Below are positions 17,559 through 40,522 of a stretch of DNA of 64,000 nt, one piece after another. The translations under genes and the position numbers were made by a program. Numbering within the stretch: the first letter of the stretch is position 1; each line of letters opens with the position of its first letter. This DNA is from an uncultured Victivallis sp. (GTDB lineage Bacteria; Verrucomicrobiota; Lentisphaeria; Victivallales; GWF2-50-93), in assembly GCA_964600895.1 (NCBI GenBank), contig CAZRKP010000002.1:78220-142219 (forward strand), read 5' to 3'. Under the pieces are notes generated by a model. That model saw only the letters and a program-made list of their open reading frames with translations, was not told where the DNA came from and did no database searches.

Positions 17559-19007
17559 ATGTCAAAATATGATGTTGTCATAGGATTGGAAGTGCATGTC
17601 CAGGTAAGGACGGACAGCAAGATGTTCTGTTCATGTCCGAACAGGTTCGGGCAGGAGCCGAACACCATGGTGTGTCCTGTCTGCATGGGACTGCCCGGGG
17701 TAATGCCTTATCCTAACAGGGAAGCGGTGAGAAAGACAGTGATGGCTGGGCTTATGTGCGGCTGTGAGATAGCGAAGTTCAGCAAATTTGACCGAAAGAG
17801 CTATTTCTATCCTGACATGCCGAAGAATTACCAGATCTCCCAGTACGACCTGCCGCTGTGCGGAAAAGGAAAACTGCATGTCTGCGGGAAAGGATTTTCA
17901 GGTGCAGAGCTTCCTGACAAGTCCATTGGGATCACGAGGATACACCTCGAGGAGGACGTGGGAAAGCTGAACCATTTTGCCGGTTACAGCGGAATCGACT
18001 TCAACAGGGCCGGTGTGCCCTTAATGGAGATAGTTAGTGAACCGGACATGAGTTCCGCCGATGAAGCCTATGCCTACCTCACTTCGCTGAAACAGATCAT
18101 GCAGTATGCCGACATCAGCGACTGCGATATGGAAAAAGGGCAGATGCGCTGCGATGTGAACATATCCTTGAAGCTGGCCGGTGCAAAAGAATTCGGCACC
18201 AAGGTGGAGATCAAGAATCTCAACAGCTTCCGTTCCGCACATCGTTCCATTGAGCATGAGATAATCCGACAGGCAGAGGTGCTTGATGCGGGAGGAAAGA
18301 TAACGCAGGAGACACGTGGATGGACGGATGATCGCGGTGAGACTTATCTGCTCAGGAGCAAGGAGAGTGCGCATGACTACAGGTATTTCCCTGAACCGGA
18401 TCTCCTGCCGATGACATTTTCGGATGAGGATATAGCAAAAATCAAATCGCAGCTTCCCGAGCTTCCAGAACAGAAGAGGGAAAGGTTTGTTGCGACTCTG
18501 GGATTGACTCCATATGATGCGCAGGTGCTTACCCTTGACAAGACGCTTTCGGACTACTTTGACGAAGGTGCGAAGCTTGCAAAGTCTCCCAAGATGCTTG
18601 CGAACTGGATCATCACTGAACTCCTCAGGGAACTTAACGACAGGAATATTCCTTTTGAGAATAATCCTGTTCCTGTAAGCCATCTTGTAGAACTGGTTGA
18701 ACTTGTAAGCGGTGGAACGATCACCGGCAAATCGGCCAAAGAAGTCTTTTCCGAGTTGTTCGCCGGTGGGAAGACACCGAAGCAGATCGTCTCTGAAAAA
18801 GGGCTTGTGCAGATCAGCGATGATTCCGCTATAGAGAAGTTCGTGATCACTGCCATAGAGCAGAATCCTACCCAGGTCAAGCAGTACAAGGAAGGCAAGA
18901 CGGCTGTAATGCAGTTCTTCGTAGGGCAGGTCATGAAACAGAGCAAGGGCAAAGCGAATCCGCAGATCGTCAACAAACTTCTCAGGGAAAAACTGGATCA
19001 GTGCTGA
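17559..19007 (+). CDS. gatB: Asp/Glu-tRNA amidotransferase subunit B
   Basis: Typical GatB N-terminus (YDVVIGLEVHVQ...) and a C-terminal YqeY-like tail. Confidence 0.95.
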   Translation: MSKYDVVIGLEVHVQVRTDSKMFCSCPNRFGQEPNTMVCPVCMGLPGVMPYPNREAVRKTVMAGLMCGCEIAKFSKFDRKSYFYPDMPKNYQISQYDLPLCGKGKLHVCGKGFSGAELPDKSIGITRIHLEEDVGKLNHFAGYSGIDFNRAGVPLMEIVSEPDMSSADEAYAYLTSLKQIMQYADISDCDMEKGQMRCDVNISLKLAGAKEFGTKVEIKNLNSFRSAHRSIEHEIIRQAEVLDAGGKITQETRGWTDDRGETYLLRSKESAHDYRYFPEPDLLPMTFSDEDIAKIKSQLPELPEQKRERFVATLGLTPYDAQVLTLDKTLSDYFDEGAKLAKSPKMLANWIITELLRELNDRNIPFENNPVPVSHLVELVELVSGGTITGKSAKEVFSELFAGGKTPKQIVSEKGLVQISDDSAIEKFVITAIEQNPTQVKQYKEGKTAVMQFFVGQVMKQSKGKANPQIVNKLLREKLDQC

Positions 19008-20866
19008 TCCTTTTTCACCTCATATATCTGGAAATACTCATAATCCCATATCTTCCTAAGGTTTCCATCCGAGGAAAGAGAGCCAATAGATTCAGCAAAG
19101 TTCCTAGTCCTTTCAAGATATTGCGGGAGCCTGTCGGGATCGTTCTCTGAAAGTCCGACGAGGACGTGGGTGATTTTGTTCTCTCTGAGGACTTTCATTA
19201 TCTGAGATTTATCAACGGTCTGTTCCGGCGGGGTGAAGAATTTCTCCTGGAAGAAAGGAGTAGCTATCACTGCATTCCTCTTGAAGTAGAATCCGCGGTT
19301 TTCAAAGATCATCATAAGCCTGGCATCCTTGGGAAGCTTGGTATTGACTATCTGTACGGCCTGAAGATAGCCGGGCCCTGTAGAAGAATAGAGGTAGTCC
19401 TCCTGCTTCATTGAGCCCAATACGCTTTTCCACGAGTATATGCAGTCCTTTACGATATTTAAAGGGACTGAGAAGATTGACAGTATTATGATGCTTGCCA
19501 GGATCACAATTCTAGGTTGCATGGGGATGTATTTCAGGGAAAATTTTGATAGAAAGACCATCAGGAACAGGGCAGGTATGAGGAATCTGGACTGTTGGGA
19601 GGAGAAGAACCAGAAGGAATATAGGATTAGCACGAGCAGGAAGTATGGCTTCAGGTGGAGGGAATCATTTTTCATGGCCATGAGCAGGGAAACAACTGAA
19701 AGGAGCAGTATGAAAGAAAATTGCCAGCCGAAAGACCCGTCGAACAAATTGGAGCTGAAACAGAGGAGGATGGGTGCTGAGAAGAAACCGTAGATACCGT
19801 CTGTCCCATATTTCAAACTGCCTATTGCATGGTGATACCTGCTCATTTCCAATGAGGCGGGGTTGTCGGAGAAGAAATTCTGGAAGTATGGATACATAGG
19901 ATTTCCAGTTTCCAGATATGGCCTTATATAAAAAGCGGATGAGATGATGATAAAAGTCGCGGTGAATACAAGGATGATTTTTAGAAAAACAGCAGGCTTG
20001 GCATTTTTCAGTTGCATGAAAAGTATCAGAGAAGCACCGATGATTAGTCCTGTGAGTTTGACTGAAGCTGCAATGCCGGCGAAGAAACCAGTGAGGATGA
20101 GCATTAAAAGGGTAGGAGTCTTCATGAAGTTCTGTCTTGCTGTCAGGAGAATCGCTGCGAAATTCGCAAGGATGAAGAGTTCCACGTATGCAGAGCCTGC
20201 TGAGATCAGGACTGCTGAGCAGATTCCGAAAGAGAGGGTAAGAATTACCGAAGCTGGTCTTGTAAGTCCGGGCTTAAGCAGGGACTGGAGTGATAACATC
20301 GACAAACCCCAGAGAGAGAGGATGAATATCCTAGGGGCAGCAGTCCCTCCAAGAATCAGCATCAAATAAAAATTTATTGATGCTGCAGAGGGAAAACCTG
20401 AATAGGGAATGTCAGGAATGAAGCATATTCTTCCGTTCTGAATCCATTTTGCTGGAACAGTCAACTGATAGGTGAGTTCATCCCAGCTGGTCGGGCTGGC
20501 AAGACTTCTACCGAGGATCAGGAGTCCCGGAAGAAGTATCAGCAGAATGGGGAGGAAGCGATATGCCTTGAGGAATGATTTCCTCTGTTTTGAGAAATAA
20601 GTTGCAAGACCCGAGCACATCAACGCAAAGAACACCATGAAAAATATAAATCTGATATTCAACCTGCTAATAAGACCGGACCAACCGAGGAGAAAGACTA
20701 TCACAGTCAGGATATCCATCCCTAAAACTGTCTTGACCGGAAATGAGCAGCGGAAACAGGTGTTTTTAAGGATCAGAGAGCCTATGTAATATGAAATGAC
20801 AAGATATACGCCTGTGGAAACAAGTGCCATTGCAATATCCGGACTGTTGAAGAGAGGAGCGTTCAT
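18998..20866 (-). CDS. polytopic membrane protein, GT-C-fold glycosyltransferase candidate (unclassified)
   Basis: It has at least 12 predicted TM helices, an acidic WDELTYQ motif in the first external loop, and a soluble ~150 aa C-terminal domain. It overlaps the next gene by 4 nt and the gatB 3' end by 10 nt (convergent). Confidence 0.5.
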   Translation of the reverse strand: MNAPLFNSPDIAMALVSTGVYLVISYYIGSLILKNTCFRCSFPVKTVLGMDILTVIVFLLGWSGLISRLNIRFIFFMVFFALMCSGLATYFSKQRKSFLKAYRFLPILLILLPGLLILGRSLASPTSWDELTYQLTVPAKWIQNGRICFIPDIPYSGFPSAASINFYLMLILGGTAAPRIFILSLWGLSMLSLQSLLKPGLTRPASVILTLSFGICSAVLISAGSAYVELFILANFAAILLTARQNFMKTPTLLMLILTGFFAGIAASVKLTGLIIGASLILFMQLKNAKPAVFLKIILVFTATFIIISSAFYIRPYLETGNPMYPYFQNFFSDNPASLEMSRYHHAIGSLKYGTDGIYGFFSAPILLCFSSNLFDGSFGWQFSFILLLSVVSLLMAMKNDSLHLKPYFLLVLILYSFWFFSSQQSRFLIPALFLMVFLSKFSLKYIPMQPRIVILASIIILSIFSVPLNIVKDCIYSWKSVLGSMKQEDYLYSSTGPGYLQAVQIVNTKLPKDARLMMIFENRGFYFKRNAVIATPFFQEKFFTPPEQTVDKSQIMKVLRENKITHVLVGLSENDPDRLPQYLERTRNFAESIGSLSSDGNLRKIWDYEYFQIYEVKKDQH

Positions 20867-22680
20867 TTTTTATTGTCAAGTTCCCTTAGTTCAACGAATT
20901 TATTCTCATAATATGGATTCTTGAGGATTTCAGGTATGTGTTTTTCTGTCAGCCCCATGTGCTTAAGTGCATTCATGAGCCTTAAAGTGGAGAATTCGGC
21001 ATTATTTGTTAGCCCGAGCTCCTTTTCAAGAGATATCTGCATGCAGAGAGATATGACAGATATGGGGAAGCATGTGGTGTCCTTCCTCATATATGAAAGT
21101 GCTTCCTCCTTCCTTCCCAGGGCCAGCAGGCATTCGGCTATATGCCTGTTGCTGTGTGCAATCTGCGGCAGGACGGAATCTTCCATTTTTCTGAAGAAAT
21201 ACAGGGACATTACTGGATCCCTGAAGAAGGAAGTTGAAATAACGGCACAATGGAAATAAGAAGCCGGAACTCTGTCTGTCTCTGACGCCATCTGGCTGAA
21301 CTTGAGAGCCCTTGAAGGGTTCTTCTGCGAATAAAGTGAAATGTCAGAATTGCGCAGGGCGTTTGAAGTGGAAAGACTGGCCATGACAAACAGCACTGCT
21401 TGGACAGCGAGAAAGATAGCGGTGATTGGTATTAAGACATATTTGACGGGGTCGTTCCTGTTCTGTATGTCAGTGGATTGTTCCAGAGGCCAGAATTCAT
21501 TCCAAATGAATCCAAGAAGGATACAAGCTATAAGATTGGTAGGCCATTGGAAAAGGACAAGGTCGAACATGGAATGAAGGATAAGGATTGAGAAGGATAA
21601 AATAATCAATCTCATTTTAAGATCAAGGTCTCTGAATCTTCTGTAAAGTCCAAAGACAGGATAGAGCCAAAGAAAGAGCCAGGCTGCTGCGCCAAGGATT
21701 CCGAAGCCGGCAAGGATGTAAAGGAACTCATTGTGCGGGTGGAGTGTCCTGAAGGCGAAATGGTGTTCCTTGATGAAATAGTCAATTGGTCGGTATGGGG
21801 CGTAGGCGCTTTCGAAGGATGGAAGGCTGACTCCGGCAAAGGGGTGTTCCAGGAAAAGGCTTACGGTGCTATGCCATAGGGAGAATCGAACATCTTTGAA
21901 AATTATATTGGCGACCTTTTCCCCATTGAACATCGCAACTGCCAGAAGTATGACAGCTCCGTATACTATTGCCCTGGCCAGCAATTTGTTTTTCAGAGAA
22001 GGGAAATAAATAGAGAGGGTGATAATGAGTACTATTGCAAGGGATAGCCAGGCACCTCGTGAATTGCAGAGGAAGACGAAATAGAGCGAAATCAGCACGA
22101 TCAGCGAGGAGGGAATGAATTGGATAAAAGGCTTCAACCTGTTTTTTGATATTTCATATGCAATATAAGCTGGGAATGGGACTGTAGCCAGTATCAGGGA
22201 TGCGTTCCAGTTGGTGTTTCCTGGAAGTCCGAGGCATTCTCCATTCCTGATGAATATCTGCCATATGCAATGAAGGATGTTGATTATCCAGACAATAGAA
22301 AGGAAGTGGATTATAAGGGGTTTTGAGGAATTTGAACAGAGGCTGATAGCCAATGGCAGGACCGCGAAGGCGATTGATGCATAGAAGAGACCCGCCGAAT
22401 ATCCGTTGATCTGTAGAAGATGTATTGATTCGATAAGGATTATTGCCAATATGGATAGTCCAGCCAAAGGATAAAGTTTTACAAATCCGGATAGCATTTC
22501 TCTTTTAGTCAATATTATAAGCAGGGAGACACAAGCGATTGTACTGGTGCTGAAGAGGCATATATATGAGGAATAAAGGAATTTGCCTGGAACCAGGAGC
22601 ACAATGGGATATGCGAATAGGACCAGTAGGCAGATGACACCGGCAAGCAAGGCGTTGGTTGACAGATGTCTGCTACTCAT
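20863..22680 (-). CDS. O-antigen ligase family (Wzy_C domain) membrane protein with C-terminal helical-repeat region
   Basis: Motifs NSRGAWLSL, RFSLW and HPHNEFLYILAGFGILG are typical of WaaL/PglL/PilO Wzy_C domains. The ~180 aa C-terminal region is TPR-like. Confidence 0.7.
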   Translation of the reverse strand: MSSRHLSTNALLAGVICLLVLFAYPIVLLVPGKFLYSSYICLFSTSTIACVSLLIILTKREMLSGFVKLYPLAGLSILAIILIESIHLLQINGYSAGLFYASIAFAVLPLAISLCSNSSKPLIIHFLSIVWIINILHCIWQIFIRNGECLGLPGNTNWNASLILATVPFPAYIAYEISKNRLKPFIQFIPSSLIVLISLYFVFLCNSRGAWLSLAIVLIITLSIYFPSLKNKLLARAIVYGAVILLAVAMFNGEKVANIIFKDVRFSLWHSTVSLFLEHPFAGVSLPSFESAYAPYRPIDYFIKEHHFAFRTLHPHNEFLYILAGFGILGAAAWLFLWLYPVFGLYRRFRDLDLKMRLIILSFSILILHSMFDLVLFQWPTNLIACILLGFIWNEFWPLEQSTDIQNRNDPVKYVLIPITAIFLAVQAVLFVMASLSTSNALRNSDISLYSQKNPSRALKFSQMASETDRVPASYFHCAVISTSFFRDPVMSLYFFRKMEDSVLPQIAHSNRHIAECLLALGRKEEALSYMRKDTTCFPISVISLCMQISLEKELGLTNNAEFSTLRLMNALKHMGLTEKHIPEILKNPYYENKFVELRELDNKK

Positions 22681-22743
22681 GTGATTCCTAAAAAGGATTC
22701 AAAATTTAATGATTCCTGTAAGGAAAGATACAACATTAAAGGC

Positions 22744-22776
22744 AAAAAAAAAGAGGGAGTTTTTCAACTCCCTCTT
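22744..22776 (-). terminator. rho-independent terminator of the pilin-like gene
   Basis: The minus strand reads gagggagt-tgaaaa-actccctc followed by a T9 run. Confidence 0.8.
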
Positions 22777-22804
22777 TAAGGGTCAAATCAAGTATGACCT
22801 GTTA

Positions 22805-23308
22805 TTACCAGGTGAATCCTGAACTTCCAACGTTACCATTGCTCCAGGTCGCTCCGGCGAAACCGGCGGCATGACCGTCGCAGAAGAGAACGTTACCATA
22901 CTTGGTATGGTTGCTGGGTCTGTCAATAGCAACAGCACTGTCAACCGATGTCGACTCATTGAGACCGCTGGCGTAGCTATATGATACGCTGGCGCCCGTA
23001 AGATCGTAGTTATCAGTGATCATGTCTGTTGTTGAAGGGCAATTGTACATTTTGACGTTTTCGAGATATCCGCCTGAACGCAGCATCTCAAATCCAGTTC
23101 TGCCACTAAAGCAGGGGAACCTTTCCTTGTACTCCTGAGAGTACATACGGATAGCAAGACCGATCTGCTTCAGATTGCTGGTACAGCTGATACGGCGAGC
23201 TTTTTCACGAGCTTGACTGAGAGCCGGAAGTAGCATTCCAGCCAGGATGGCTATGATCGCGATAACGACCAGCAGCTCAATCAGGGTGAATCCACGACTT
23301 TTCTTCAT
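22805..23308 (-). CDS. prepilin-type N-terminal cleavage/methylation domain protein, H-X9-DG (DUF1559-like) family
   Basis: The N-terminus is [30 protein letters not shown]. The C-terminal [13 protein letters not shown] matches H-X9-DG. Confidence 0.9.
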
Positions 23309-23496
23309 TTTCTTTACTCCTTTTTTAACTTTTTGACCCTTTTATTTCTTTTACTACGGAAACAATTGTATCAAAAAACAATTTAAAAAGCAATAGGGAA
23401 ACTGGGGATATTTCATTTTTTTTCATTATTTTTTTGATATGCCTTCCTCAAATTCATTTATTGGGTTGTATTTAGATTATAACAGTCTTATGGTAA

Positions 23497-25962: not shown

Positions 25963-25964
25963 AG

Positions 25965-28489: not shown

Positions 28490-28592
28490 ATTATATCCTT
28501 TTTTTAATGCGCTTTGGAATTCGAAGTGGTTATTCTATCCCCCAAATGTATATTCTTCAAACATCACTGGCAATCTATGGGGAACTTGAATT

Positions 28593-32135: not shown

Positions 32136-32140
32136 GGAAA

Positions 32141-34229: not shown

Positions 34230-34266
34230 GTTTGGATAAAGAATGTTTCCTAAAGGAAGAGGTAAT

Positions 34267-34989
34267 ATGCCTGTTTCATGTTCTGTAGTCATACCTACGT
34301 ACAATGAAAAGGAGAACATAGGTGTTCTTCTCGAAAGGCTTGTGAAGATCCTTGCCGGGCGTGAGTTCGAGATAATCGTCGCCGACGACGATTCTCCTGA
34401 CATGACCTGGCAGGTCGTTGAAGAACTCTCGAAAAAGGATCCTCGCATCCGGTGCATCAGGCGTACACATGACAAGGGACTCAGCCCAAGCATTGTCGAG
34501 GGATTTGATTCGGCGAAAGGGGAATATCTCTGCGTAATGGATGCCGATCTCCAGCATGATGAATCATTCCTGCCAAAAATGCTCGAGGAATGCGCGAAGT
34601 GCGATCTTGTCTTCGGAAGCCGTTATGCGCCAGGAGGAGGTATTGAGGGGGGATGGCCAATCCATAGGAGAATAATGAGCTGGGCTGCCACTGCCATGGC
34701 GAAAGGTTTCCTTGGAATCAAAACAAGCGATCCAATGTCTGGGTTCTTTGTAGTAAAGGCATTGTCTTACAAGAGGATCCGCCAGTACCTGAATCCTCGG
34801 GGATTCAAGATACTTCTCGAGATCATGTATCTGCTCCAGATCCATCCGGAAAAATCTGAGTTCAAGGAAGTGCCTATCTTTTTCAGGAAAAGAGTTGCTG
34901 GAGAGAGCAAACTGGGTATTGGAGTCATGAAGGATTATCTGGTTTCACTCTGGAAACTCTCAAAGGTCACTATTTCATCGAATAAATGA
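34267..34989 (+). CDS. polyprenol-phosphate mannose synthase (Dpm1/Ppm1-like GT2)
   Basis: VVIPTYNEKENI, IIVADDDSPD and VMDADLQHD (DXD) are present. An AGGAAGAGG RBS precedes the ATG at 34267; the track start is 34243. Confidence 0.85.
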   Translation: MPVSCSVVIPTYNEKENIGVLLERLVKILAGREFEIIVADDDSPDMTWQVVEELSKKDPRIRCIRRTHDKGLSPSIVEGFDSAKGEYLCVMDADLQHDESFLPKMLEECAKCDLVFGSRYAPGGGIEGGWPIHRRIMSWAATAMAKGFLGIKTSDPMSGFFVVKALSYKRIRQYLNPRGFKILLEIMYLLQIHPEKSEFKEVPIFFRKRVAGESKLGIGVMKDYLVSLWKLSKVTISSNK

Positions 34990-35009
34990 GCCGTGGAGGC
35001 TAATTTCTA

Positions 35010-37097
35010 ATGAGCAAGATAAGCTATGATTCAAGGGCCATCCTGATAGAAGGGAAGCGGATGATTCTTCTCAGTGGATCAATCCATTATCCGCGCAGTA
35101 CGCCGGGAATGTGGCCGGAATTGATGCGGAAAAGCCGAAAGGCAGGCCTTAATACGATAGAGACATATGTCTTCTGGAATCTACACGAAAAGATTCGCGG
35201 TATCTATGATTTCTCAGACAGGCTCGATCTGCGCCGTTACTGTGAGCTGGCCCAGTCCGAGGGGCTAAATCTCATTCTCCGTATTGGTCCATACATCTGT
35301 GCGGAGACGAATTTCGGAGGTCTTCCACCTTGGCTCAGGGACGTCCCTGGAATGACCATCCGCACCTTCAACAAGCCATTCATGGATGAAATGGAACGCT
35401 GGATGCGGATGCTAGTGGAGTATCTTAGGCCCTGCTTTGCCGGCAATGGTGGGCCGATAATCATGGCGCAGGTTGAAAATGAATATGACAACATAGGCAA
35501 ATATTACGGCGAAGGTGGTGAGAAATATTGCAAATGGGCAGTTGACCTTGGTGTTTCACTGAACCTCGGAGTCCCTTGGATAATGTGTTCCGGGAGCGCA
35601 CCTGGATCAATTGAGACAATCAATGGTTTTCTTGCACATCACGGATTGGAGAGGCAGTTCAAGGAACATCCCGACCAGCCGGCGATATGGACCGAGAACT
35701 GGCCTGGCTGGTACGATACCTGGGGCTACTCGCATCATGCACGCTCCCCGGAACATGTTGCATACGGTGTTGCCCGTTTCTTTGCGGGCGGAGGAACTGG
35801 AGTCAACTACTACATGTGGCATGGGGGGACCAACTTCGGTCGCGAGTCCATGTATTTGCAGACGACCTCCTACGATTTTGATGCTCCTCTCGATGAATAC
35901 GGAATGGAAACCCGCAAGAGCAGGCATCTTGCGAAACTACACAAAATCCTCGCCGATGCATCAGGAATACTCCTTCATCTTGACTCTCCTGAGATCCGAA
36001 AGATTGGGAACAAGGCATCGGCCTTCATTTACGATGGTAAATCGAAAGGGCGGCTTGTTTTTCTGTGCAACGACGATACTGGGGTCCCAGCATCCATCAG
36101 TTTTGAAGGACGCACATATGAGCTGAAACCTGCATCGGTGGTGATTATCCGCAACAATTCCCCCGTCCTGGATACTGCCGTACTGGAAGAATCAAAGTTA
36201 TCATGCAAGGCAAGGTGGACGGTTAAGTCTGTCCTCTCCAAATTCGAAACTTGGGAGGAACCAATTCCAGATGATGGGATATCATGTTCCGTCAGGTCGA
36301 AAACTCCAGTTGAACAATTATCACTGACACGCGATGATACCGATTATTGCTGGTATACCACGACGATGGAAGTTAAAGATGGACGACAGAAGAAAGGGTT
36401 TCTGTCATTGAAAGGTGTTGCCGACTACGTCTATGTCTTTATCGATGGCCAGTTGATGGCAAGCACGCCTGTCCCTCTCAAGGAGAACCGTGTTCTTGAG
36501 AACGACGAGGATTTTACTCAGGCATTTGAATTTTCCCTTAAGCCTGGTAGATATCGTCTCCAGATTCTTTGCTGTGCACTCGGTCTGATCAAGGGCGACT
36601 GGATGCTTGGATTCAAGAACATGGTGAAGGAAAGAAAGGGGCTTTGGGGCTCCACCTCATGGGATGGTAAGCTTTTGAAGGGAGATTGGACAATGTTTCC
36701 GGGGCTGCAGGGGGAAAGATTCCGCCTCTATGACGTTTTTGCATGCCAGCCGGAATGGTCATCCAAGCCGCGGAGTAAGCGTGCTTGCCTGCGCTGGTGG
36801 CGTACAAGTTTCCCACGCCCGAAAGGTAATTCTCCGATAGCCCTGGACCTCTCCAGCATGGGGAAGGGGCTTGCATGGATCAACGGGATTTGCATTGGCC
36901 GTTACTGGCTTGCGAAATCTGTTGGCAGGAATCCGATATCACCCCGTGACGCTTTCATTGACGCAAGCTTTACAGGCATGCCGACGCAGACCTTATACCA
37001 TGTACCGAGGGATTTTGTTAAAGACACCAACAGTCTTGTCATTTTTGAGGAGCAGGGGGGCGATCCCAATAAGATTCGCCTTATGCTAAGAAACTAA
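35010..37097 (+). CDS. glycoside hydrolase family 35 beta-galactosidase (no signal peptide)
   Basis: GSIHYPRSTPGMWPELM, ETYVFWNLHE, RIGPYICAETNFGG and the acid/base QVENEY strongly resemble plant-type GH35. Confidence 0.9.
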   Translation: MSKISYDSRAILIEGKRMILLSGSIHYPRSTPGMWPELMRKSRKAGLNTIETYVFWNLHEKIRGIYDFSDRLDLRRYCELAQSEGLNLILRIGPYICAETNFGGLPPWLRDVPGMTIRTFNKPFMDEMERWMRMLVEYLRPCFAGNGGPIIMAQVENEYDNIGKYYGEGGEKYCKWAVDLGVSLNLGVPWIMCSGSAPGSIETINGFLAHHGLERQFKEHPDQPAIWTENWPGWYDTWGYSHHARSPEHVAYGVARFFAGGGTGVNYYMWHGGTNFGRESMYLQTTSYDFDAPLDEYGMETRKSRHLAKLHKILADASGILLHLDSPEIRKIGNKASAFIYDGKSKGRLVFLCNDDTGVPASISFEGRTYELKPASVVIIRNNSPVLDTAVLEESKLSCKARWTVKSVLSKFETWEEPIPDDGISCSVRSKTPVEQLSLTRDDTDYCWYTTTMEVKDGRQKKGFLSLKGVADYVYVFIDGQLMASTPVPLKENRVLENDEDFTQAFEFSLKPGRYRLQILCCALGLIKGDWMLGFKNMVKERKGLWGSTSWDGKLLKGDWTMFPGLQGERFRLYDVFACQPEWSSKPRSKRACLRWWRTSFPRPKGNSPIALDLSSMGKGLAWINGICIGRYWLAKSVGRNPISPRDAFIDASFTGMPTQTLYHVPRDFVKDTNSLVIFEEQGGDPNKIRLMLRN

Positions 37098-38779
37098 TGT
37101 ATGATTCTTTCAACAAATTACTGAAGAATAAATACGCCGTATGCCTTATTCTCGCTGTAGTGGCTGCGGTCCCGTATCTTTCCTCTTTGAAAGGGGAATT
37201 CGTCTTCGATGACATACCCCTTCTGCAGGCGGATCCATTCTACCAGGCAGACCACTCATTCCTTGACTGCTGGAAACGCGACTACTGGATGGAACCGATG
37301 GCGCAGGGACTCTACAGGCCTCTCACGACTTTCTCATACTGGCTAAACTTCAAGATATGCGGACTTTATTCTCCCGCATTCAGAACTGTGAATCTGCTCC
37401 TGAATATTTTCGCCGTCATCATTGTCTTCTTCCTTGCATTGAATCTTAAAACAGGAAGGAAAGCAGCTTTTCTCTGTGCTGCAGTCTTCGCACTTCATCC
37501 GCTCCATACTGAGGCAGTGATCCCTGCCTTTGGTCGAGGAGAGGTTCTATGCGGCCTTTTTATTTTTCTTGGCCTGCTTTTCCATATTAAGTCAGTCAAG
37601 AAACCATTTATGTCCGTCCTGACAGCGATTTGCTTCATTCTTGCCTGCTGGTCTAAGGAGCATGGGGTCACCCTTCTGCCGTTGTGCGTGCTCTACGACA
37701 TCTATTCCGGACGCTTGAAGATGGAAAAAGTATCTTTCCTTTCAAATATGAAATTCTACGGCTTCTACATTGCAGCAGTGGCTGTCGTTGTGACGACAAG
37801 ATATGCCGCGATGGGAACGGTATTGCCAGCTATGACAAGATTTGATTCTTTTTTCGACAACCAGCTGGCCCTTTGCTCATATCCCGTAAGGGTGCTCAGC
37901 GCAATCAATATCCAGGGATATGCCCTGCTGCTGTTCATCTGGCCGAAGACATTGTCGCATGACTATTCCTTTGCACAGATGCTCCCATTGAAGTCCGCAA
38001 TAGACCCGATCGGTCTATTAGGTGCAGCAGTAGTCATTTCATTGCCTTTCATGCTCGCATGGATTTTTCCGAGGTCCAGGAAACAGATCATTTTCCTGTC
38101 AATTGCATATCTCATATGTATTCTGCCCGCAGCAAACATAATAACTCCTACCGGGACAATTTTCGCTGAAAGGCTTTATTATATTCCAAGCTTATGGTTA
38201 TGCATGCTGTTGGCCTGCATAGTTGTCAGGTATTCATATGGGATCGATAAGGGGCTGGTTCCAATACTGGTGTTGTCGATAATTCTTGTGCTTGCAGCTT
38301 TAGGGTTGAGGACGTTCGTTCGGTCGTTCGACTGGCAAAACCAGCTCAGCATTTCCCTGGCGGGTGTTGAGACCTCGCCGAAAAGCGCCAAGACTTGGAA
38401 CAATCTTGCCGTCCAATATGCCCATGAGGAAAAGCTCGATGACGCCATAAAGTTCTGTGGAGAGGCGATAAAGATTTATCCCAGTTTCAAGATGGCATAT
38501 ATCAACAGGGGATTCTACTTCATCAAGAAGGGCGATCTGAGGTCCGCAGAAAAGGATCTCCACAAGGTCATCGAACTGGGAACTGAGAATACAGAGGTAT
38601 ATAATAAGCTTGGTGCGATACTCGCAAACCTCGGCCGGGAAGAGGAGGCGATGAAATACTGGAAGATATCGCTTAAGCTTGACAGTTCCCAGACTATGAT
38701 GAAAAGGGCGGTGGAGGACCTGCAGAAGGATATAGATGGGAAAAATCCGAAGCTCGAACTCCGAAATTCGAAACAATGA
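37097..38779 (+). CDS. TMTC/DUF1736-like membrane glycosyltransferase candidate with TPR repeats (paralogue 3)
   Basis: Motifs are FVFDDIPL, LYRPLTTFSYWLN, HPLHTEAV and WSKEHGV, with a TPR tail. Its ATG shares one base with the GH35 stop (TAATG). Confidence 0.7.
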   Translation: MYDSFNKLLKNKYAVCLILAVVAAVPYLSSLKGEFVFDDIPLLQADPFYQADHSFLDCWKRDYWMEPMAQGLYRPLTTFSYWLNFKICGLYSPAFRTVNLLLNIFAVIIVFFLALNLKTGRKAAFLCAAVFALHPLHTEAVIPAFGRGEVLCGLFIFLGLLFHIKSVKKPFMSVLTAICFILACWSKEHGVTLLPLCVLYDIYSGRLKMEKVSFLSNMKFYGFYIAAVAVVVTTRYAAMGTVLPAMTRFDSFFDNQLALCSYPVRVLSAINIQGYALLLFIWPKTLSHDYSFAQMLPLKSAIDPIGLLGAAVVISLPFMLAWIFPRSRKQIIFLSIAYLICILPAANIITPTGTIFAERLYYIPSLWLCMLLACIVVRYSYGIDKGLVPILVLSIILVLAALGLRTFVRSFDWQNQLSISLAGVETSPKSAKTWNNLAVQYAHEEKLDDAIKFCGEAIKIYPSFKMAYINRGFYFIKKGDLRSAEKDLHKVIELGTENTEVYNKLGAILANLGREEEAMKYWKISLKLDSSQTMMKRAVEDLQKDIDGKNPKLELRNSKQ

Positions 38780-38803
38780 CAAATCCATGGGCAAAAAAGC
38801 TGA

Positions 38804-40522
38804 ATGAAGATAACATGCAATAGTCCAAAGCTCCTAAGAAAAGTATTTCCATACGCGGTCGTCCTCTGCATACTTGCGGCAGCCATTCCATATTTCTATT
38901 CCCTCTACGGGGAGTTTGTCTTCGATGACATTCCCCTCATCAAGAACGATCCGTTCTACGTCAAGGAGGCAAACCCTTTTAAATGCTGGAACCGCGATTT
39001 CTGGATGGAAAGCAAGAAGCAGGGGCTCTACAGGCCGGTCACATTGTTCACTTTCTGGCTCAACGCAAGATTCAAGGACGACAGCGGGAGGGCTATTTCA
39101 GCGATCTTCAGGACGACAAACCTCATAATCCATATACTTGTCACGCTTTTGGTCCTTAAACTGGCGCTTAGATTGAAGTTCGGACACTGGACTGCGATAT
39201 TCGCAGCTGCGATATTCGCAGTTCACCCGATACATACCGAAGCCGTGATTCCAGCATACGGGAGAGCGGAACTCCTCTGCGCCTTATTCACGCTCCTTGC
39301 CCTCATATTGCACACATATGTCGACAGGAACAAGCTTGCATGTGTATTTGCCGGGATCAGCTTTCTCTTCGCCTGCTGGTCCAAGGAGCATGGTGTGGCG
39401 GTACTCCCGCTTGTATTTCTTATGGATCTCTACCTCAAGAGGCCTGCCGGTTTGAAGCAAGCGGTTGAACTTGTCAAAGGCAGGATGTGGATTTACCTAT
39501 CCTATGTGGCGGTGCTCGGAATATTTTTTGCCTCGAGGTATTTTGCCACCGGTTCACTGTTGCCCAGCAAGGAATTCTTCGATCCTGCGATCGACAATCC
39601 GATAGCTCTCTGCCATTTCCCCTTGAACTTCATAAGCGCCCTTAAAGTCCAGGGTTTTGCTTTGTCGAAGTTCTTCTGGCCAGCGGTCCTCTCACATGAC
39701 TACTCCTATGCCCAGCTTCTCCCGTCCACTTCAGTCCTTGACTGGAAGGCATGGCTTACCGTAATTCTGTTTTTCGGAATCCCGCTTCTGATGTCATTTG
39801 CCTTCCGCGACCTTAGATACAAGCTTCTTTTCCTTCTGGCGGCCTATATGGTATGCATCCTTCCGTCCGGGAATTTCATTGTCATGACAGGAACGATCTT
39901 CGGGGAAAGGCTCCAGTATATCCCCAGCATAATGCTTTGCATCTTTGTGGCGCTGATAATCAAGGAACTGTTTGGAAGACTGGAATTCAGGACAGTTATT
40001 GCAGTCATGTTCGCGATCATCTTCCTGCTGTCATTGAGGACACGTGCAAGAGGCGAGGACTGGGACACTCAGATGAGCCTTGCTCTGGCCGGTGTAAGAA
40101 CTGCACCAATGAGCATAAAGACATGGAACAACCTTACCGTTGAACTGGGTGAAGCCGCCACGCTTGAGAAGGATCCTGCATTGAAGAGGAAGATGTACGA
40201 GGAGGCGGTATTATCATGCGACATGGCCCTGTCGATCTATCCGAAGTATATCACGGCCTATGCCAACAGGGGCATCTACAACTCCTATCTCGGGAACTAC
40301 AAGCAGGCCGAGTCCGACCTCAGGATGGCGATTTCCATGCATGCCAACCATTTCATGGCCAACTATACGCTCGGAGCACTTCTTGCGAACCAGGGGAGAT
40401 TCGAGGACGCCAGAGTGATATGGGAAAGGCTCCTGAAGACAAATCCTAATGACAGACTTCTCAAGGAGTCCTATTCTCGACTATTGAAGGATATGGCGAA
40501 AAAGTCCGGAAAGGAAAATTGA
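38804..40522 (+). CDS. TMTC/DUF1736-like membrane glycosyltransferase candidate with TPR repeats (paralogue 4)
   Basis: Motifs are FVFDDIPL, LYRPVTLFTFWLN, HPIHTEAV and WSKEHGV, with a TPR tail. Confidence 0.7.
   Translation: MKITCNSPKLLRKVFPYAVVLCILAAAIPYFYSLYGEFVFDDIPLIKNDPFYVKEANPFKCWNRDFWMESKKQGLYRPVTLFTFWLNARFKDDSGRAISAIFRTTNLIIHILVTLLVLKLALRLKFGHWTAIFAAAIFAVHPIHTEAVIPAYGRAELLCALFTLLALILHTYVDRNKLACVFAGISFLFACWSKEHGVAVLPLVFLMDLYLKRPAGLKQAVELVKGRMWIYLSYVAVLGIFFASRYFATGSLLPSKEFFDPAIDNPIALCHFPLNFISALKVQGFALSKFFWPAVLSHDYSYAQLLPSTSVLDWKAWLTVILFFGIPLLMSFAFRDLRYKLLFLLAAYMVCILPSGNFIVMTGTIFGERLQYIPSIMLCIFVALIIKELFGRLEFRTVIAVMFAIIFLLSLRTRARGEDWDTQMSLALAGVRTAPMSIKTWNNLTVELGEAATLEKDPALKRKMYEEAVLSCDMALSIYPKYITAYANRGIYNSYLGNYKQAESDLRMAISMHANHFMANYTLGALLANQGRFEDARVIWERLLKTNPNDRLLKESYSRLLKDMAKKSGKEN

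What the first reader, a model, noticed from the sequence alone, without database searches (positions are those of the whole stretch)
18998..40522. 21.5-kb supercluster of nine GT-C-type membrane glycosyltransferase candidates plus a polyprenyl-P-mannose synthase: candidate novel periplasmic O-glycosylation system
Fourteen consecutive genes include nine very large polytopic membrane proteins of 426-821 aa. Each has an acidic motif in its first extracytoplasmic loop (WDELTYQ, FVFDD x3, NWDDE, FDEPFH, SDLN..Y). This is the hallmark of lipid-phosphate-sugar-dependent GT-C enzymes. The only soluble transferase in the block is a Dpm1/Ppm1-like GT2 (34267-34989), which would make the polyprenyl-P-mannose donor. 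I saw no Wzx/Wzy polymerase pair, Wzz, initiating phosphoglycosyltransferase or nucleotide-sugar biosynthesis genes. So this does not look like an ordinary O-antigen or EPS locus. Five of the nine carry TPR or helical-repeat domains, which are protein-interaction modules. That points to protein substrates. This density of paralogous and heterologous GT-C enzymes around one donor synthase is unusual and, to my knowledge, functionally undescribed in bacteria.
Basis: partly seen in the sequence, partly recalled or inferred. Interest (0 to 1): 0.8.

Follow-up and report, generated by a model that had tools for sequence, protein, structure and literature searches.

The report
Lentisphaerota membrane glycosyltransferase gene island
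A 21.5-kb stretch of an uncultured Lentisphaerota genome really does hold nine lipid-sugar-dependent membrane glycosyltransferases and one donor-making enzyme. It looks like several modules of a known kind of periplasmic glycosylation, including a widespread, undescribed pilin + ligase-like + new glycosyltransferase trio, not a wholly new system.

Summary
Window 18998-40522 carries 14 genes, nine of them polytopic membrane proteins, and all nine fall in GT-C-type families:
- three close TMTC-like TPR paralogs (g5, g13, g14) and a divergent fourth (g9)
- a PMT_2 protein with a PMT-like VFDE loop (g10)
- a divergent GT87 (g8)
- a YfhO protein (g4)
- a Wzy_C protein (g2)
- a DUF8201 protein (g1). 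Its confident AlphaFold model matches AglB, ArnT, STT3, DPY19 and ALG9/12.

The GT2 (g11) matches Pyrococcus dolichol-P-mannose synthase at 3.9e-49. The cluster is conserved in at least five related Lentisphaerota contigs.

- The scheme (GT2 donor synthase plus periplasmic GT-C enzymes) is already known in bacteria, including for proteins.
- Three genes (MTAP, a class II aldolase, GH35) are probably passengers.
- Protein substrates are inferred, not shown.

The new result is a conserved module: short DUF1559 pilin, then Wzy_C, then DUF8201. It recurs across metagenomes and exists as natural Wzy_C-DUF8201 fusions. It resembles pilA-tfpO/tfpW pilin glycosylation.

Verdict: new variant of a known kind, moderate interest.

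The parts
18998..20866 (-). g1, 622 aa. DUF8201 (PF26626) family GT-C_A-fold membrane glycosyltransferase with a C-terminal periplasmic alpha/beta domain. The conserved WDE motif has D129 invariant.
   Evidence: No hit in the local Pfam or NCBIfam copies. Homologs carry PF26626 = DUF8201. AlphaFold2 gives pLDDT 89.9 and pTM 0.91. Top Foldseek PDB hits are AglB 5e-6, ArnT 5f15 (TMq 0.53, TMt 0.60), DPY19, STT3, ALG9/12, PglB and Pmt4, and the C-terminal domain hits the AglB globular domain 3vu0. One homolog hits PMT_2 at 4.7e-8. There is an ATGA overlap with g2.
20863..22680 (-). g2, 605 aa. Wzy_C-domain protein (O-antigen ligase / PglL / TfpO family), about 12 TM helices plus a roughly 170-aa C-terminal helical (TPR-like) domain.
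   Evidence: Pfam Wzy_C 1.5e-16, 60.9 bits against a 31.7 cutoff. Weak match to WaaL 7tpg (0.019) and TPR-like hits at residues 512-546. Natural fusions with DUF8201 exist, P0307 and P0320.
22750..22777 (-). Terminator/attenuator-like hairpin (12-bp stem followed by T7) between the pilin gene g3 and g2.
   Evidence: Consensus scan. It is the strongest terminator-like site in the region, but it is only a pattern match.
22805..23308 (-). g3, 167 aa. Short prepilin-type protein (N_methyl + DUF1559 N-terminus, HX9DG-like C-terminal core) with Ser/Thr/Gly-rich variable segments. Candidate glycosylation target.
   Evidence: Pfam N_methyl 1.8e-10 and SBP_bac_10 6.3e-13. NCBIfam pilin/pseudopilin N-terminal hits. 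It is the only prepilin motif in the 64-kb window. Orthologs at 54-83% identity sit upstream of Wzy_C in relatives.
23497..25962 (+). g4, 821 aa (possibly 808 aa from 23536). YfhO-family GT-C. It lies in a low-GC stretch and is an accessory member of the island.
   Evidence: Pfam YfhO 4.3e-7 over the C-terminal 50 residues only. 21 of 27 homologs carry PF09586. GC is 0.396 at 22-26 kb against 0.45-0.50 in the adjoining blocks. The gene is absent from two relatives and present in two.
25965..27707 (-). g5, 580 aa as an ORF (probably 544 aa from 27599). TMTC-like GT-C with C-terminal TPR.
   Evidence: Weak PMT_2 (8.5e-5) and TMTC_DUF1736 (0.003) hits plus strong TPR hits. About 41% identical to g13 and g14. 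The DD, YRP, HPLHSEAV, KE, HDY and ERxxY motifs are present.
27596..28489 (-). g6, 297 aa. S-methyl-5'-thioadenosine phosphorylase (MTAP). Probably a salvage gene, translationally coupled to g5.
   Evidence: PNP_UDP_1 5.2e-36. TIGR01694 MTAP 277.4 bits against a 274.85 cutoff. ATGA overlap with g5 M37.
28593..29225 (+). g7, 210 aa. Class II aldolase (FucA/MtnB-like). Probably the salvage partner of g6, and first gene of the g7-g8-g9 unit.
   Evidence: Aldolase_II 6.5e-48. NCBIfam FucA_Meth 7.8e-41 and MtnB 4.6e-27, all below their cutoffs.
29234..30514 (+). g8, 426 aa. Divergent GT87-like GT-C (PimE / Rv2181-type polyprenyl-P-mannose-dependent family).
   Evidence: No direct Pfam hit. Many homologs at E 1e-16 to 1e-6 carry PF09594 GT87. 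D34 is nearly invariant. A g11-like GT2 lies adjacent in other phyla (L007, L026).
30474..32135 (+). g9, 553 aa. Divergent TMTC-like GT-C with C-terminal TPR.
   Evidence: TPR Pfam hits. BLASTP to g13 2.5e-16 and to g5 1.6e-13 over about 500 aa. WDDE, HPLQVEAV, RKD and DRxxY motifs align with those of the paralogs.
32141..34114 (-). g10, 657 aa. PMT_2-family GT-C with a VFDEPFH loop-1 motif after TM1. Highly conserved (81% identical in a relative).
   Evidence: PMT_2 1.2e-8, 35.8 bits against a 26.1 cutoff. Weak Agl23 hit. 80.8% identity to the ortholog in Lentisphaerae bacterium GWF2_49_21.
34243..34989 (+). g11, 248 aa (or 240 aa from 34267). Soluble DPMS/Dpm1-like GT2, the presumed polyprenyl-phosphate-hexose (probably mannose) synthase.
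   Evidence: Glycos_transf_2 2.4e-35. Best PDB match is P. furiosus dolichol-P-mannose synthase 5mlz at 3.9e-49 over residues 12-241, against about 1e-10 for ArnC and GtrB. DADLQH motif present. No TM segment.
35010..37097 (+). g12, 695 aa. GH35 beta-galactosidase without a signal peptide. Accessory or passenger gene inside the g11-g14 operon.
   Evidence: Glyco_hydro_35 1.8e-101 starting at residue 11. N-terminus read. Absent from the ERZ1426830 relative. TAATG overlap with g13.
37097..38779 (+). g13, 560 aa. TMTC-like GT-C with 11 predicted TM helices and a C-terminal TPR domain.
   Evidence: TPR hits and weak TMTC_DUF1736 (0.006). DD, YRP, HPLHTEAV, KEHGVT, HDY and ERLYY motifs. The AlphaFold model is poor (pLDDT 63) but shows 11 TM helices plus TPR, and the TM part hits PglB 6gxc.
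38804..40522 (+). g14, 572 aa. TMTC-like GT-C with C-terminal TPR.
   Evidence: TPR hits plus weak PMT_2 (0.006) and TMTC_DUF1736 (0.004). 41.6% identical to g13. Motifs.

Best explanation
The region is a conserved Lentisphaerota island for periplasmic glycosylation of the cell envelope. It is built from at least two modules of a known mechanistic kind.

Module A (g11 with g4, g5, g8, g9, g10, g13, g14). The cytoplasmic DPMS-like GT2 g11 loads a hexose, most likely mannose, onto polyprenyl phosphate. The lipid-linked sugar is then flipped by a flippase that is not recognisable in the window. A battery of GT-C_A enzymes transfers it to acceptors on the periplasmic face. The four TMTC-like enzymes present a periplasmic TPR domain and most likely O-glycosylate specific envelope or secreted proteins. 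The GT87-like, PMT_2 and YfhO enzymes act on proteins or on glycans/lipoglycans.

Module B (g3, g2, g1; one operon with g2 and g1 translationally coupled). A conserved short DUF1559 pilin is made together with a Wzy_C-family transferase (PglL/TfpO-like, Und-PP-glycan donor) and a DUF8201 GT-C. The two enzymes work as a pair, most likely to glycosylate the pilin or extend its glycan.

Shown here: family and fold assignments, motif conservation, synteny, gene fusions and gene overlaps.

Inferred: the sugar, the donor-sharing between modules, the topology of the TPR domains, and every acceptor.

g6/g7 (MTA salvage) and g12 (GH35) are probably passengers.
For: GT-C status:
- g2 Wzy_C 1.5e-16, g10 PMT_2 1.2e-8, g4 YfhO 4.3e-7.
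- Homologs of g4 carry PF09586 and homologs of g8 carry GT87 PF09594.
- The g1 model (pLDDT 89.9) hits only GT-C_A enzymes at the top of the list.
- g5, g13 and g14 are about 41% identical to each other, and g9 is related to g13 at 2.5e-16. They keep TMTC motifs M1 (DD), part of M2 (YRP), M4 (KExxxT) and M7 (ERxxY), plus the HP(I/L)HTEAV segment that matches human TMTC3 FAVHPIHT.

Donor synthase: g11 matches PfDPMS at 3.9e-49, against about 1e-10 for ArnC and GtrB.

Link between g8 and g11: a g11-like GT2 lies next to g8-like genes in unrelated phyla (L007 at 44.7% identity, and L026).

Conservation of the island: ERZ1426830, GWF2_49_21 next to gatCAB, JGI 3300059473, and L042/L043.

Module B:
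- The triad is found in the window and in relatives down to 33% identity, including one contig where it stands alone (L037).
- In a metagenome sample, 19 of 44 evaluable DUF8201 loci have Wzy_C directly upstream. 14 of 16 such loci with enough sequence also carry the short pilin. 29 of 37 have a prepilin gene within 4 kb, against one prepilin gene in the whole 64-kb window.
- Two independent natural Wzy_C-DUF8201 fusion proteins exist.
- g2 and g1 share an ATGA overlap.

Precedents: PgfS/PgfM1 and GtrB/PgtC2 O-glycosylate Ser/Thr-rich protein regions (PMC12041528). TfpW, and TfpO beside pilA, glycosylate pilin (10.1101/2020.04.19.049825; 10.1101/150227). PglL homologs often lie next to their targets (PMC3643930).
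Against: - There are no experimental data, and no acceptor is identified.
- TMTC_DUF1736 and PMT_2 hits for g5, g13 and g14 are below Pfam gathering scores. TMTC motifs M2 (the H/K residues), M5 (DW becomes DY) and M6 (PxxP) are not kept. The g13 model is low-confidence.
- No flippase, GDP-mannose pathway gene, Wzx or initiating phosphoglycosyltransferase is in the window. The Und-PP-glycan needed by a PglL-like g2 is therefore unaccounted for.
- All characterised GT87 enzymes that I know of act on glycolipids or glycans, not proteins.
- The GT-C complement differs between relatives, and g8-type genes usually occur alone elsewhere. 'One system' may therefore be too strong.
- Sequence cannot distinguish a Wzy_C ligase or polymerase from an O-oligosaccharyltransferase.
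Confidence: 0.6

Rival explanations
1. The island assembles or decorates a glycan, not proteins. A periplasmic mannan-type lipoglycan, an exopolysaccharide, or LPS core/O-antigen would be built or modified by the GT87, PMT_2, YfhO and DUF8201 enzymes using polyprenyl-P-mannose, as in actinobacterial LM/LAM synthesis. g2 would act as the ligase or polymerase. The TPR domains would mediate assembly of the machinery rather than substrate choice.
For: g8 belongs to the GT87 neighbourhood. g2 is in the WaaL/Wzy family and matches WaaL 7tpg weakly. YfhO and Gtr-type GT-Cs classically modify teichoic acids and O-antigens (PMC11127046, PMC8035078). A Kiritimatiellota g8 homolog sits among GH130, GT4 and GDP-mannose-dehydratase-like genes, a mannan-type context. 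rmlD lies 7 kb upstream in the window.
Against: The four TMTC-like enzymes are most similar, by motifs and architecture, to protein O-mannosyltransferases. The pilin-Wzy_C-DUF8201 association is specific and widespread. No backbone polysaccharide synthesis or export genes are in the island.
Confidence: 0.28
2. The region is not one system. It would be a syntenic hot-spot where independent GT-C genes, each with its own donor and acceptor, have accumulated by duplication and insertion between housekeeping genes (gatCAB, MTAP/aldolase, grpE-dnaJ). g11 would serve only some of them.
For: There are six or more transcription units on both strands. The GT-C complement varies between relatives, with g4 and g12 absent from some and extra PMT_2 genes in ERZ1426830. 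The g3-g4 stretch has low GC (0.396). A transposase lies inside one relative's cluster. The triad stands alone elsewhere, and g8-type genes stand alone elsewhere.
Against: The core order is kept at 50-88% protein identity across several genomes. Each cluster variant seen has only one polyprenyl-P-sugar synthase. Translational coupling exists within units.
Confidence: 0.25
3. The donor is a methylthio-pentose. MTAP (g6) and the class II aldolase/epimerase-family protein (g7) would be part of the pathway, converting 5'-methylthioadenosine into a lipid-linked 5-methylthio-pentose that a GT-C transfers. This would parallel the MTX cap of M. tuberculosis lipoarabinomannan (MtxS GT2 + MtxT GT-C).
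For: g6 is a bona fide MTAP. It is translationally coupled to the TMTC-like g5, and g7 heads the g7-g8-g9 unit. The MTAP/aldolase pair sits in the middle of the island in all three relatives examined. [quoted passage not shown]
Against: MTAP plus a FucA-like aldolase is the standard MTA/5'-deoxyadenosine salvage pair, which is a sufficient housekeeping explanation (my knowledge; NCBIfam hits). No nucleotidyltransferase or epimerase of the MTX type was seen. g11 resembles DPMS strongly. I could not compare g11 with MtxS.
Confidence: 0.07

Closest known systems
Eukaryotic TMTC1-4 protein O-mannosyltransferases (GT-C/PMT clan; PMC7801869)
   Same: g5, g13 and g14 (and g9 more loosely) share the architecture of about 11 TM helices plus a C-terminal TPR domain. 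They also share DD in loop 1, YRP...LN, HP(I/L)HTEAV, KExxxT and ERxxY. A Dpm1-like donor synthase is encoded nearby.
   Different: The host is bacterial and the site is the periplasm. TPR arrays are much shorter. The Pfam DUF1736 match is sub-threshold. The M2 His/Lys, M5 Trp and M6 PxxP residues are not conserved. No activity or substrate is known. Prokaryotic homologs were only mentioned in passing in that paper.
Three-component periplasmic glycosylation systems (GtrA/GtrB/Gtr*, CsbB/GtcA/YfhO, ArnC/ArnEF/ArnT; PMC11127046, PMC8035078)
   Same: A cytoplasmic GT2 makes a polyprenyl-P-monosaccharide, and a GT-C transfers it outside the cytoplasm. g4 is itself a YfhO-family protein.
   Different: Here one synthase faces up to eight GT-C_A candidates. 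No GtrA-, MATE- or SMR-type flippase is recognisable. g11 lacks TM helices and is closer to DPMS than to GtrB or ArnC. The acceptors are unknown.
Streptococcal Pgf and GtrB/PgtC2 protein O-glycosylation (PMC12041528)
   Same: A GT2 (PgfS is the top NCBIfam hit of g11, though far below its cutoff) works with YfhO-type GT-C enzymes to O-glycosylate extracytoplasmic Ser/Thr-rich protein regions. Several GT-C paralogs occur in one locus.
   Different: That system is Gram-positive and uses HexNAc or Glc donors. It has no TPR-bearing GT-Cs, no Wzy_C partner and no pilin.
Pilin glycosylation loci of P. aeruginosa (pilA-tfpO/pilO and pilA-tfpW-tfpX) and PglL-type O-oligosaccharyltransferases (10.1101/2020.04.19.049825; 10.1101/150227; PMC3643930)
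   Same: The gene order is pilin followed by a membrane transferase. TfpO/PglL are Wzy_C proteins. TfpW is a large polytopic membrane transferase (GT-C by my own recollection) with a periplasmic loop 1 and a big periplasmic C-terminal domain, like g1.
   Different: Here both enzyme types occur together, coupled or even fused. The pilin is a PVC-specific DUF1559/HX9DG type of unknown fibre. No Und-PP-glycan or arabinose pathway genes are nearby. The PglL-specific HMMs were not tested.
Actinobacterial Ppm1 with Pmt, PimE (GT87), MptA/B/C and Emb/Aft GT-Cs (LM/LAM and protein O-mannosylation)
   Same: One polyprenyl-P-mannose synthase supplies many periplasmic GT-C enzymes of different families, including a GT87 and a PMT-type enzyme. 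This is the only known bacterial setting with comparable GT-C richness.
   Different: In Actinobacteria these genes are scattered rather than in one island. The phylum and envelope differ. The TMTC-like, Wzy_C and DUF8201 components have no actinobacterial counterpart in that pathway.

Membership tests
GT-C fold glycosyltransferases (GT-C_A) | Polytopic membrane protein whose fold matches solved GT-C enzymes (conserved N-terminal TM module with juxtamembrane helices in the first long external loop). | tested here: met
   g1: the AF2 model (pLDDT 89.9) has the top 21 Foldseek PDB hits with E <= 1e-3, all GT-C_A enzymes or complexes containing them. g10 reaches PMT_2 above its Pfam cutoff and g4 reaches YfhO above its cutoff. 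g8 is assigned through GT87-annotated homologs. g13: the model is poor and only a PglB hit was obtained, so for g5, g9, g13 and g14 the fold rests on motifs and weak Pfam hits.
GT-C fold glycosyltransferases (GT-C_A) | Conserved acidic catalytic residue(s) in an extracytoplasmic loop near the N-terminus. | tested here: met
   g1 D129 invariant and E130 in >=90% of sequences. g8 D34 in >=90%. DD invariant in g5, g9, g13 and g14. g10 has VFDEPFH after TM1. The periplasmic location is inferred from topology, not measured.
GT-C fold glycosyltransferases (GT-C_A) | Uses a polyprenyl-phosphate-linked sugar donor. | not testable with these tools
   The only support is indirect: a DPMS-like GT2 in the island.
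TMTC (protein O-mannosyltransferases with TPR) | Pfam TMTC_DUF1736 loop above the gathering score. | tested here: not met
   g5 18.0, g13 17.0 and g14 17.6 bits against a cutoff of 27. g9 has no hit.
TMTC (protein O-mannosyltransferases with TPR) | Seven conserved motifs M1-M7 of PMC7801869 (DD, SHKSYRP, RxD, KE(T/Q)xxT, DW, PxxP, ERxxY). | tested here: inconclusive
   M1 is present in all four. M2 is partial (YRP only; YIP in g9). M3 is RxE in g5, g13 and g14 and RxD in g9. M4 is KEHGVT in g13, KE only in g5 and g14, and K only in g9. M5 is DY, not DW. M6 was not found. M7 is ERxxY in three and DRxxY in g9.
TMTC (protein O-mannosyltransferases with TPR) | 11 TM helices followed by a lumenal/periplasmic C-terminal TPR domain. 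| tested here: met
   The g13 model shows 11 long helices before TPR helices at residues 431-547 (low confidence). TPR Pfam hits are found in g5, g9, g13 and g14. Sidedness is inferred.
Wzy_C family (WaaL ligase / PglL-TfpO O-OTase / Wzy polymerase) | Pfam Wzy_C domain in a polytopic protein with a large periplasmic loop. | tested here: met
   g2: 60.9 bits against a 31.7 cutoff, residues 194-335. About 12 hydrophobic segments.
Wzy_C family (WaaL ligase / PglL-TfpO O-OTase / Wzy polymerase) | Assignment to the protein-targeting (PglL/TfpO) subgroup rather than to ligase or polymerase. | not tested
   The PglL-specific HMMs of PMC3643930 were not available. Only context supports it: an adjacent conserved pilin.
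Dolichol/polyprenol-phosphate mannose synthase (Dpm1/Ppm1, GT2) | GT2 catalytic domain with a DxD/DADLQH signature and closest similarity to characterised DPMS. | tested here: met
   g11: Glycos_transf_2 2.4e-35. PfDPMS 5mlz 3.9e-49 over the whole catalytic domain. VMDADLQHD read.
Dolichol/polyprenol-phosphate mannose synthase (Dpm1/Ppm1, GT2) | GDP-mannose as the substrate (sugar specificity). | not testable with these tools
   No NCBIfam equivalog reached its cutoff. Related enzymes make polyprenyl-P-Glc, -GlcNAc or -GalNAc.
Three-component periplasmic glycosylation system | A dedicated flippase (GtrA, SMR or MATE type) encoded with the GT2 and the GT-C. | tested here: not met
   No such family is found among the window's ORFs. 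The only small multi-TM ORFs (7542-8039, 13421-14011, 58401-58901) lie outside the island and match no flippase family.
GT87 (PimE/Rv2181-type mannosyltransferases) | Match to Pfam PF09594. | tested here: inconclusive
   g8 itself has no Pfam hit even at E <= 10. It is linked only through homologs that carry PF09594. The closest subfamily (E <= 1e-36) mostly lacks the annotation.

The most novel reading that the evidence does not exclude
Two linked novelties are not excluded.

(1) The trio of short DUF1559 pilin, Wzy_C and DUF8201 is a new, widespread PVC-type pilin or fibre glycosylation machine. In it a PglL/TfpO-like transferase and a previously uncharacterised GT-C family act as an obligate pair, sometimes as one polypeptide. 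The family has thousands of 50%-identity clusters.

(2) The TMTC-like paralogs are genuine bacterial, TPR-guided, substrate-specific protein O-mannosyltransferases. They would be prokaryotic counterparts of metazoan TMTC1-4, giving a tractable model for an enzyme class whose activity has been hard to show directly.
Probability: 0.3. Interest if true: 0.75.

Novelty: new variant of a known kind. Interest (0 to 1): 0.55.

Why it matters
If the reading is right, Lentisphaerota (including gut and rumen relatives) devote a conserved island to periplasmic glycosylation, with an unusually diverse set of lipid-sugar-dependent transferases.

It would give bacterial, genetically compact models for TMTC-type, TPR-guided protein O-mannosylation. 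It would assign a first function to DUF8201, a very large uncharacterised GT-C family. It would also show a coupled Wzy_C + GT-C enzyme pair acting on a PVC-specific pilin.

Pilin glycosylation is known to block phage attachment in Pseudomonas. The same logic could apply to the enigmatic DUF1559 pilin-like proteins that are massively expanded in PVC bacteria.

Tried and rejected
- Direct Pfam and NCBIfam scans of g1 and g8 gave nothing, even at E <= 10.
- A profile of g1 homologs against PDB sequences found nothing. Only structure prediction plus Foldseek resolved the fold.
- phmmer of g13 against PDB returned only TPR proteins. phmmer of g10 returned nothing useful.
- The AlphaFold model of g13 from a 4-sequence alignment was poor (pLDDT 63), and its fold search was dominated by TPR hits.
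- The genome-contig scan seeded with g8 showed that the g8 subfamily is spread over many phyla and is mostly not clustered with the other genes. It therefore says little about conservation of the island. The source genome and its close relatives were not in that collection.
- Literature searches for bacterial TMTC-like enzymes, DUF1559 glycosylation or Lentisphaerae glycosylation found no characterisation.
- The MTX biosynthesis paper (PMC5357196) and a related review (PMC5831173) are not held, so the MTX comparison rests on secondary citations.
- I considered and rejected the idea that the big proteins are transporters. Only GT-C enzymes reach significance in the g1 fold search; transporters appear only at E > 0.2 with probability <= 0.1.
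- I considered and set aside GH35 as a periplasmic trimming enzyme, because it has no signal peptide.

Full report
**1. What is there**

The ORF map shows 14 consecutive genes between 18998 and 40522. They are flanked by housekeeping genes: gatA/gatB upstream and grpE/dnaJ downstream.

I call them g1 to g14:
- g1: 18998-20866, minus strand, 622 aa
- g2: 20863-22680, minus, 605 aa
- g3: 22805-23308, minus, 167 aa
- g4: 23497-25962, plus, 821 aa
- g5: 25965-27707, minus, 580 aa
- g6: 27596-28489, minus, 297 aa
- g7: 28593-29225, plus, 210 aa
- g8: 29234-30514, plus, 426 aa
- g9: 30474-32135, plus, 553 aa
- g10: 32141-34114, minus, 657 aa
- g11: 34243-34989, plus, 248 aa
- g12: 35010-37097, plus, 695 aa
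- g13: 37097-38779, plus, 560 aa
- g14: 38804-40522, plus, 572 aa

A hydropathy scan finds 7-13 hydrophobic segments in each of the nine large proteins. It finds none in g6, g7, g11 or g12.

**2. Family assignments**

Pfam gives:
- g2: Wzy_C, 1.5e-16
- g3: N_methyl + DUF1559 (a prepilin-type protein typical of PVC bacteria)
- g4: YfhO, 4.3e-7, C-terminal 50 residues only
- g5, g13, g14: strong TPR plus sub-threshold PMT_2 and/or TMTC_DUF1736
- g9: TPR only
- g10: PMT_2, 1.2e-8
- g11: GT2, 2.4e-35
- g12: GH35 beta-galactosidase, 1.8e-101
- g6: PNP_UDP_1
- g7: class II aldolase
- g1 and g8: no hit, even at E <= 10

BLASTP among the window's own proteins shows that g5, g13 and g14 are about 41% identical paralogs. 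g9 is a distant relative of them (2.5e-16 to g13).

Homolog searches settled the remaining assignments:
- g8 is a divergent relative of GT87. Dozens of homologs at 1e-16 to 1e-6 carry PF09594.
- g4's homologs carry PF09586 YfhO.
- g1 belongs to PF26626 = DUF8201. One homolog reaches PMT_2 at 4.7e-8.

The names attached to homologs place the organism in Lentisphaerota. It is known only from metagenome contigs.

**3. Structure of g1**

An AlphaFold2 model built from 27 homologs is confident (pLDDT 89.9, pTM 0.91). In a Foldseek search of the PDB, all 21 hits at E <= 1e-3 are GT-C_A enzymes or complexes containing them. They include AglB (5e-6), ArnT 5f15 (TMq 0.53, TMt 0.60), the C-mannosyltransferase DPY19, STT3, ALG9, ALG12 and PglB; Pmt4 follows at 3.2e-3.

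The C-terminal alpha/beta domain matches the globular domain of AglB (3vu0). So g1 is a GT-C with an oligosaccharyltransferase-like layout.

The WDE motif (D129 invariant) follows the fourth helix of the model.

A profile of the family finds 4,445 representative clusters at E <= 1e-30 and 12,773 at E <= 1e-10. This is a very large uncharacterised family.

**4. The TMTC-like proteins**

I compared them with the seven TMTC motifs defined in PMC7801869. g5, g13 and g14 keep:
- DD in loop 1
- YRP...F..WLN (part of M2)
- RxE (M3 is RxD)
- KEHGVT / KEH (M4)
- HDY (M5 is DW)
- ERxxY (M7)

They also carry HP(L/I)HTEAV, which matches the human TMTC3 segment FAVHPIHT quoted in that paper.

M6, and the His/Lys residues of M2, are not kept. 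The DUF1736 hits are below the Pfam cutoff. I therefore call these proteins TMTC-like, not TMTC members.

The g13 model, built from only four sequences, is poor (pLDDT 63). It does show 11 long helices followed by a TPR domain, and its TM part hits PglB.

That paper notes prokaryotic TMTC homologs only in passing. I found no paper that characterises one.

**5. The donor synthase**

g11 matches Pyrococcus furiosus dolichol-phosphate-mannose synthase (5mlz) at 3.9e-49 over its whole catalytic domain. It matches ArnC and GtrB only at about 1e-10. It carries the DADLQH signature and has no TM segment.

Mannose specificity cannot be proven from sequence.

A g11-like GT2 sits next to g8-like genes in an Elusimicrobiota MAG (44.7% identity) and in a Polyangiales MAG. 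This supports a functional pairing of g8 and g11.

**6. Conservation of the island**

The island recurs in relatives:
- ERZ1426830 contig (66.8 kb): g1 | Wzy_C | pilin | TMTC-like | MTAP | aldolase | TPR-PMT_2 | g8 | four further membrane proteins, three of them with PMT_2 hits | GT2 | TPR proteins.
- Lentisphaerae bacterium GWF2_49_21: the same core, again next to gatCAB. Protein identities are 53-88%, with g10 at 81% and g3 at 83%.
- JGI 3300059473, and the metagenome contigs L042 and L043.

g4 (YfhO) and g12 (GH35) come and go between relatives. g4 lies in a low-GC stretch (0.396).

Outside this clade, g8-type genes occur in many phyla, usually without the other genes.

The island is therefore a clade-level feature with a variable GT-C complement.

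**7. The pilin - Wzy_C - DUF8201 trio**

This is the most informative result. The three genes form one minus-strand unit. A strong hairpin followed by seven T residues lies after the pilin gene (22777-22750). g2 and g1 share an ATGA overlap.

The same trio occurs in all close relatives. It also occurs in a contig whose g1 homolog is only 33% identical, where it stands alone (L037). In these more distant contigs (L037, L038) the pilin is 54-63% identical, while Wzy_C is only 28-30% identical.

I scanned metagenome contigs with the g1 profile and then searched their six-frame ORFs with the window's proteins:
- Of 44 loci with at least 2 kb upstream, 19 have a g2-like Wzy_C directly upstream on the same strand.
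- Of 37 loci with at least 2.8 kb upstream, 16 have Wzy_C, and 14 of those also have one or two short g3-type pilin genes.
- 29 of those 37 have some prepilin gene within 4 kb.

For comparison, the whole 64-kb window holds only one prepilin motif, which gives a chance expectation of roughly 13%.

Two representative proteins, P0307 (1209 aa) and P0320 (1180 aa), are natural fusions of Wzy_C with DUF8201. P0307 aligns with g2 over residues 13-535 (5e-23) and with g1 over residues 684-1166 (2e-38).

Gene order, translational coupling and fusion together argue that g2 and g1 act as a pair. The conserved pilin upstream is the obvious candidate acceptor.

The pilins share an invariant CPS[ST]T motif and have Ser/Thr/Gly-rich variable segments and tails.

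The closest precedents are:
- P. aeruginosa pilA-tfpO, where TfpO is a Wzy_C enzyme.
- P. aeruginosa pilA-tfpW, where TfpW is a large membrane transferase with a periplasmic loop 1 and C-terminal domain (10.1101/2020.04.19.049825). Both modifications protect against pilus-specific phages (10.1101/150227).
- PglL homologs, which are often adjacent to their targets (PMC3643930).

**8. Genes that probably do not belong**

g6 is a bona fide MTAP (TIGR01694 above its cutoff). g7 is a FucA/MtnB-like class II aldolase. From my own knowledge, together they look like the MTA/5'-deoxyadenosine salvage pair.

g12 is a GH35 enzyme without a signal peptide.

One caveat applies. g6 is translationally coupled to g5 if g5 starts at M37, and g7 heads the g7-g8-g9 unit. 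Also, the M. tuberculosis methylthioxylose cap pathway starts from MTA and uses a GT2 (MtxS) and a GT-C (MtxT) (PMC11127046, PMC8780516). I keep a methylthio-pentose donor as a low-probability rival.

**9. What is missing**

The window holds no recognisable flippase (GtrA, MATE or Wzx), no initiating phosphoglycosyltransferase and no GDP-mannose genes. The only nucleotide-sugar gene is rmlD at 11165-12091.

The Und-PP-glycan that a PglL-like g2 would need must therefore be made elsewhere in the genome.

**10. Mechanism and comparison**

The best-supported reading has two parts.

First, a DPMS-like GT2 feeds a battery of periplasmic GT-C_A enzymes. The four TPR-bearing TMTC-like enzymes most plausibly act on proteins.

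Second, a separate pilin-directed Wzy_C/DUF8201 pair operates beside them.

This is the same mechanistic kind as several known systems:
- three-component systems (PMC11127046)
- streptococcal Pgf and GtrB-PgtC2 protein O-glycosylation (PMC12041528)
- actinobacterial Ppm1/Pmt/PimE (my knowledge)
- pilin glycosylation in Pseudomonas

It differs from them in four ways: the number and diversity of GT-C families gathered in one island, the presence of bacterial TMTC-like enzymes, the coupled Wzy_C-DUF8201 pair, and the DUF1559 pilin.

The main rivals are glycan or lipoglycan assembly, and a loose collection of independent enzymes. Sequence alone does not exclude either.

**11. Verdict**

I rate this a new variant of a known kind, with interest 0.55.

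The trio and the TMTC-like paralogs are real, testable leads.

Noticed in passing
window 27596-29225 (g6, g7): An MTAP gene and a FucA/MtnB-like class II aldolase sit divergently in the middle of the glycosyltransferase island in every relative examined. MTAP is ATGA-coupled to the TMTC-like g5, and the aldolase heads the g7-g8-g9 unit. They are probably salvage genes. The arrangement does echo the MTA-derived methylthioxylose (MtxS/MtxT) pathway of M. tuberculosis.
   Followed up: partly
proteins P0307 (1209 aa) and P0320 (1180 aa) from the representative search: These are natural single-polypeptide fusions of a Wzy_C domain protein with a DUF8201 GT-C, in the same order as g2 then g1. Their genomic origin could not be looked up.
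   Followed up: partly
proteins P0173 and P0177 (1357 aa), homologs of g4: A YfhO-like region is fused to a Wzx/MATE-type polysaccharide flippase (PF01943, PF01554, PF13440). This hints that flippase and GT-C can be a single protein in some bacteria.
   Followed up: no
window 22001-26000: GC drops to 0.396, against 0.45-0.50 in the adjoining blocks, across g3 and g4. g4 (YfhO) is missing from two relatives, so it may be a later insertion.
   Followed up: partly
window 22750-22777 (minus strand): A 12-bp-stem hairpin followed by seven T residues lies right after the pilin gene and before g2. This fits a highly expressed pilin with partial read-through into the transferase genes.
   Followed up: no
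L002/L013 (Kiritimatiellota contig), 1762-11374: A g8-type GT87-like gene lies beside two GH130 genes, a GT4, HAD phosphatases and a GDP-mannose-dehydratase-like epimerase. This is a mannoside-themed neighbourhood quite unlike the Lentisphaerota island.
   Followed up: no
L007 (Elusimicrobiota MAG), 3719-5790: A g8-like gene (38% identity) is directly followed or overlapped by a g11-like GT2 (44.7% identity). This is a minimal GT87 + polyprenyl-P-sugar synthase pair.
   Followed up: partly
L038 (ERZ28669879 contig), 5979-10884: A DUF8201 gene is flanked by a g10-like PMT_2 gene (34% identity over 643 aa) and a PTPS_related (PF10131) membrane protein. A pilin + Wzy_C pair lies 7 kb downstream. 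The modules are shuffled but stay near each other.
   Followed up: no
L071, L073-L075, L117 (metagenome contigs; L073 is titled human gut metagenome): These triads carry two tandem short-pilin genes, each with a long Ser/Thr/Gly/Glu-rich C-terminal tail, upstream of Wzy_C and DUF8201.
   Followed up: partly
window 46889-53192: Part of a dcw-type cell-wall cluster is present (mraW, PBP3-type transpeptidase, two Mur ligases). The organism therefore makes peptidoglycan.
   Followed up: no
window 55133-60137: Further carbohydrate genes lie outside the finding: a DUF4185 protein, a DUF4832/GH42-like protein, and an MGDG-synthase-like GT28/GT1 next to an unassigned 166-aa, 5-TM protein (58401-58901).
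   Followed up: no
window 25965-27707 and 23497-25962: The mechanical ORF starts are probably too far upstream. g5 likely starts at M37 (27599). g4 is called as 808 aa in the JGI record, with a start near 23536.
   Followed up: partly
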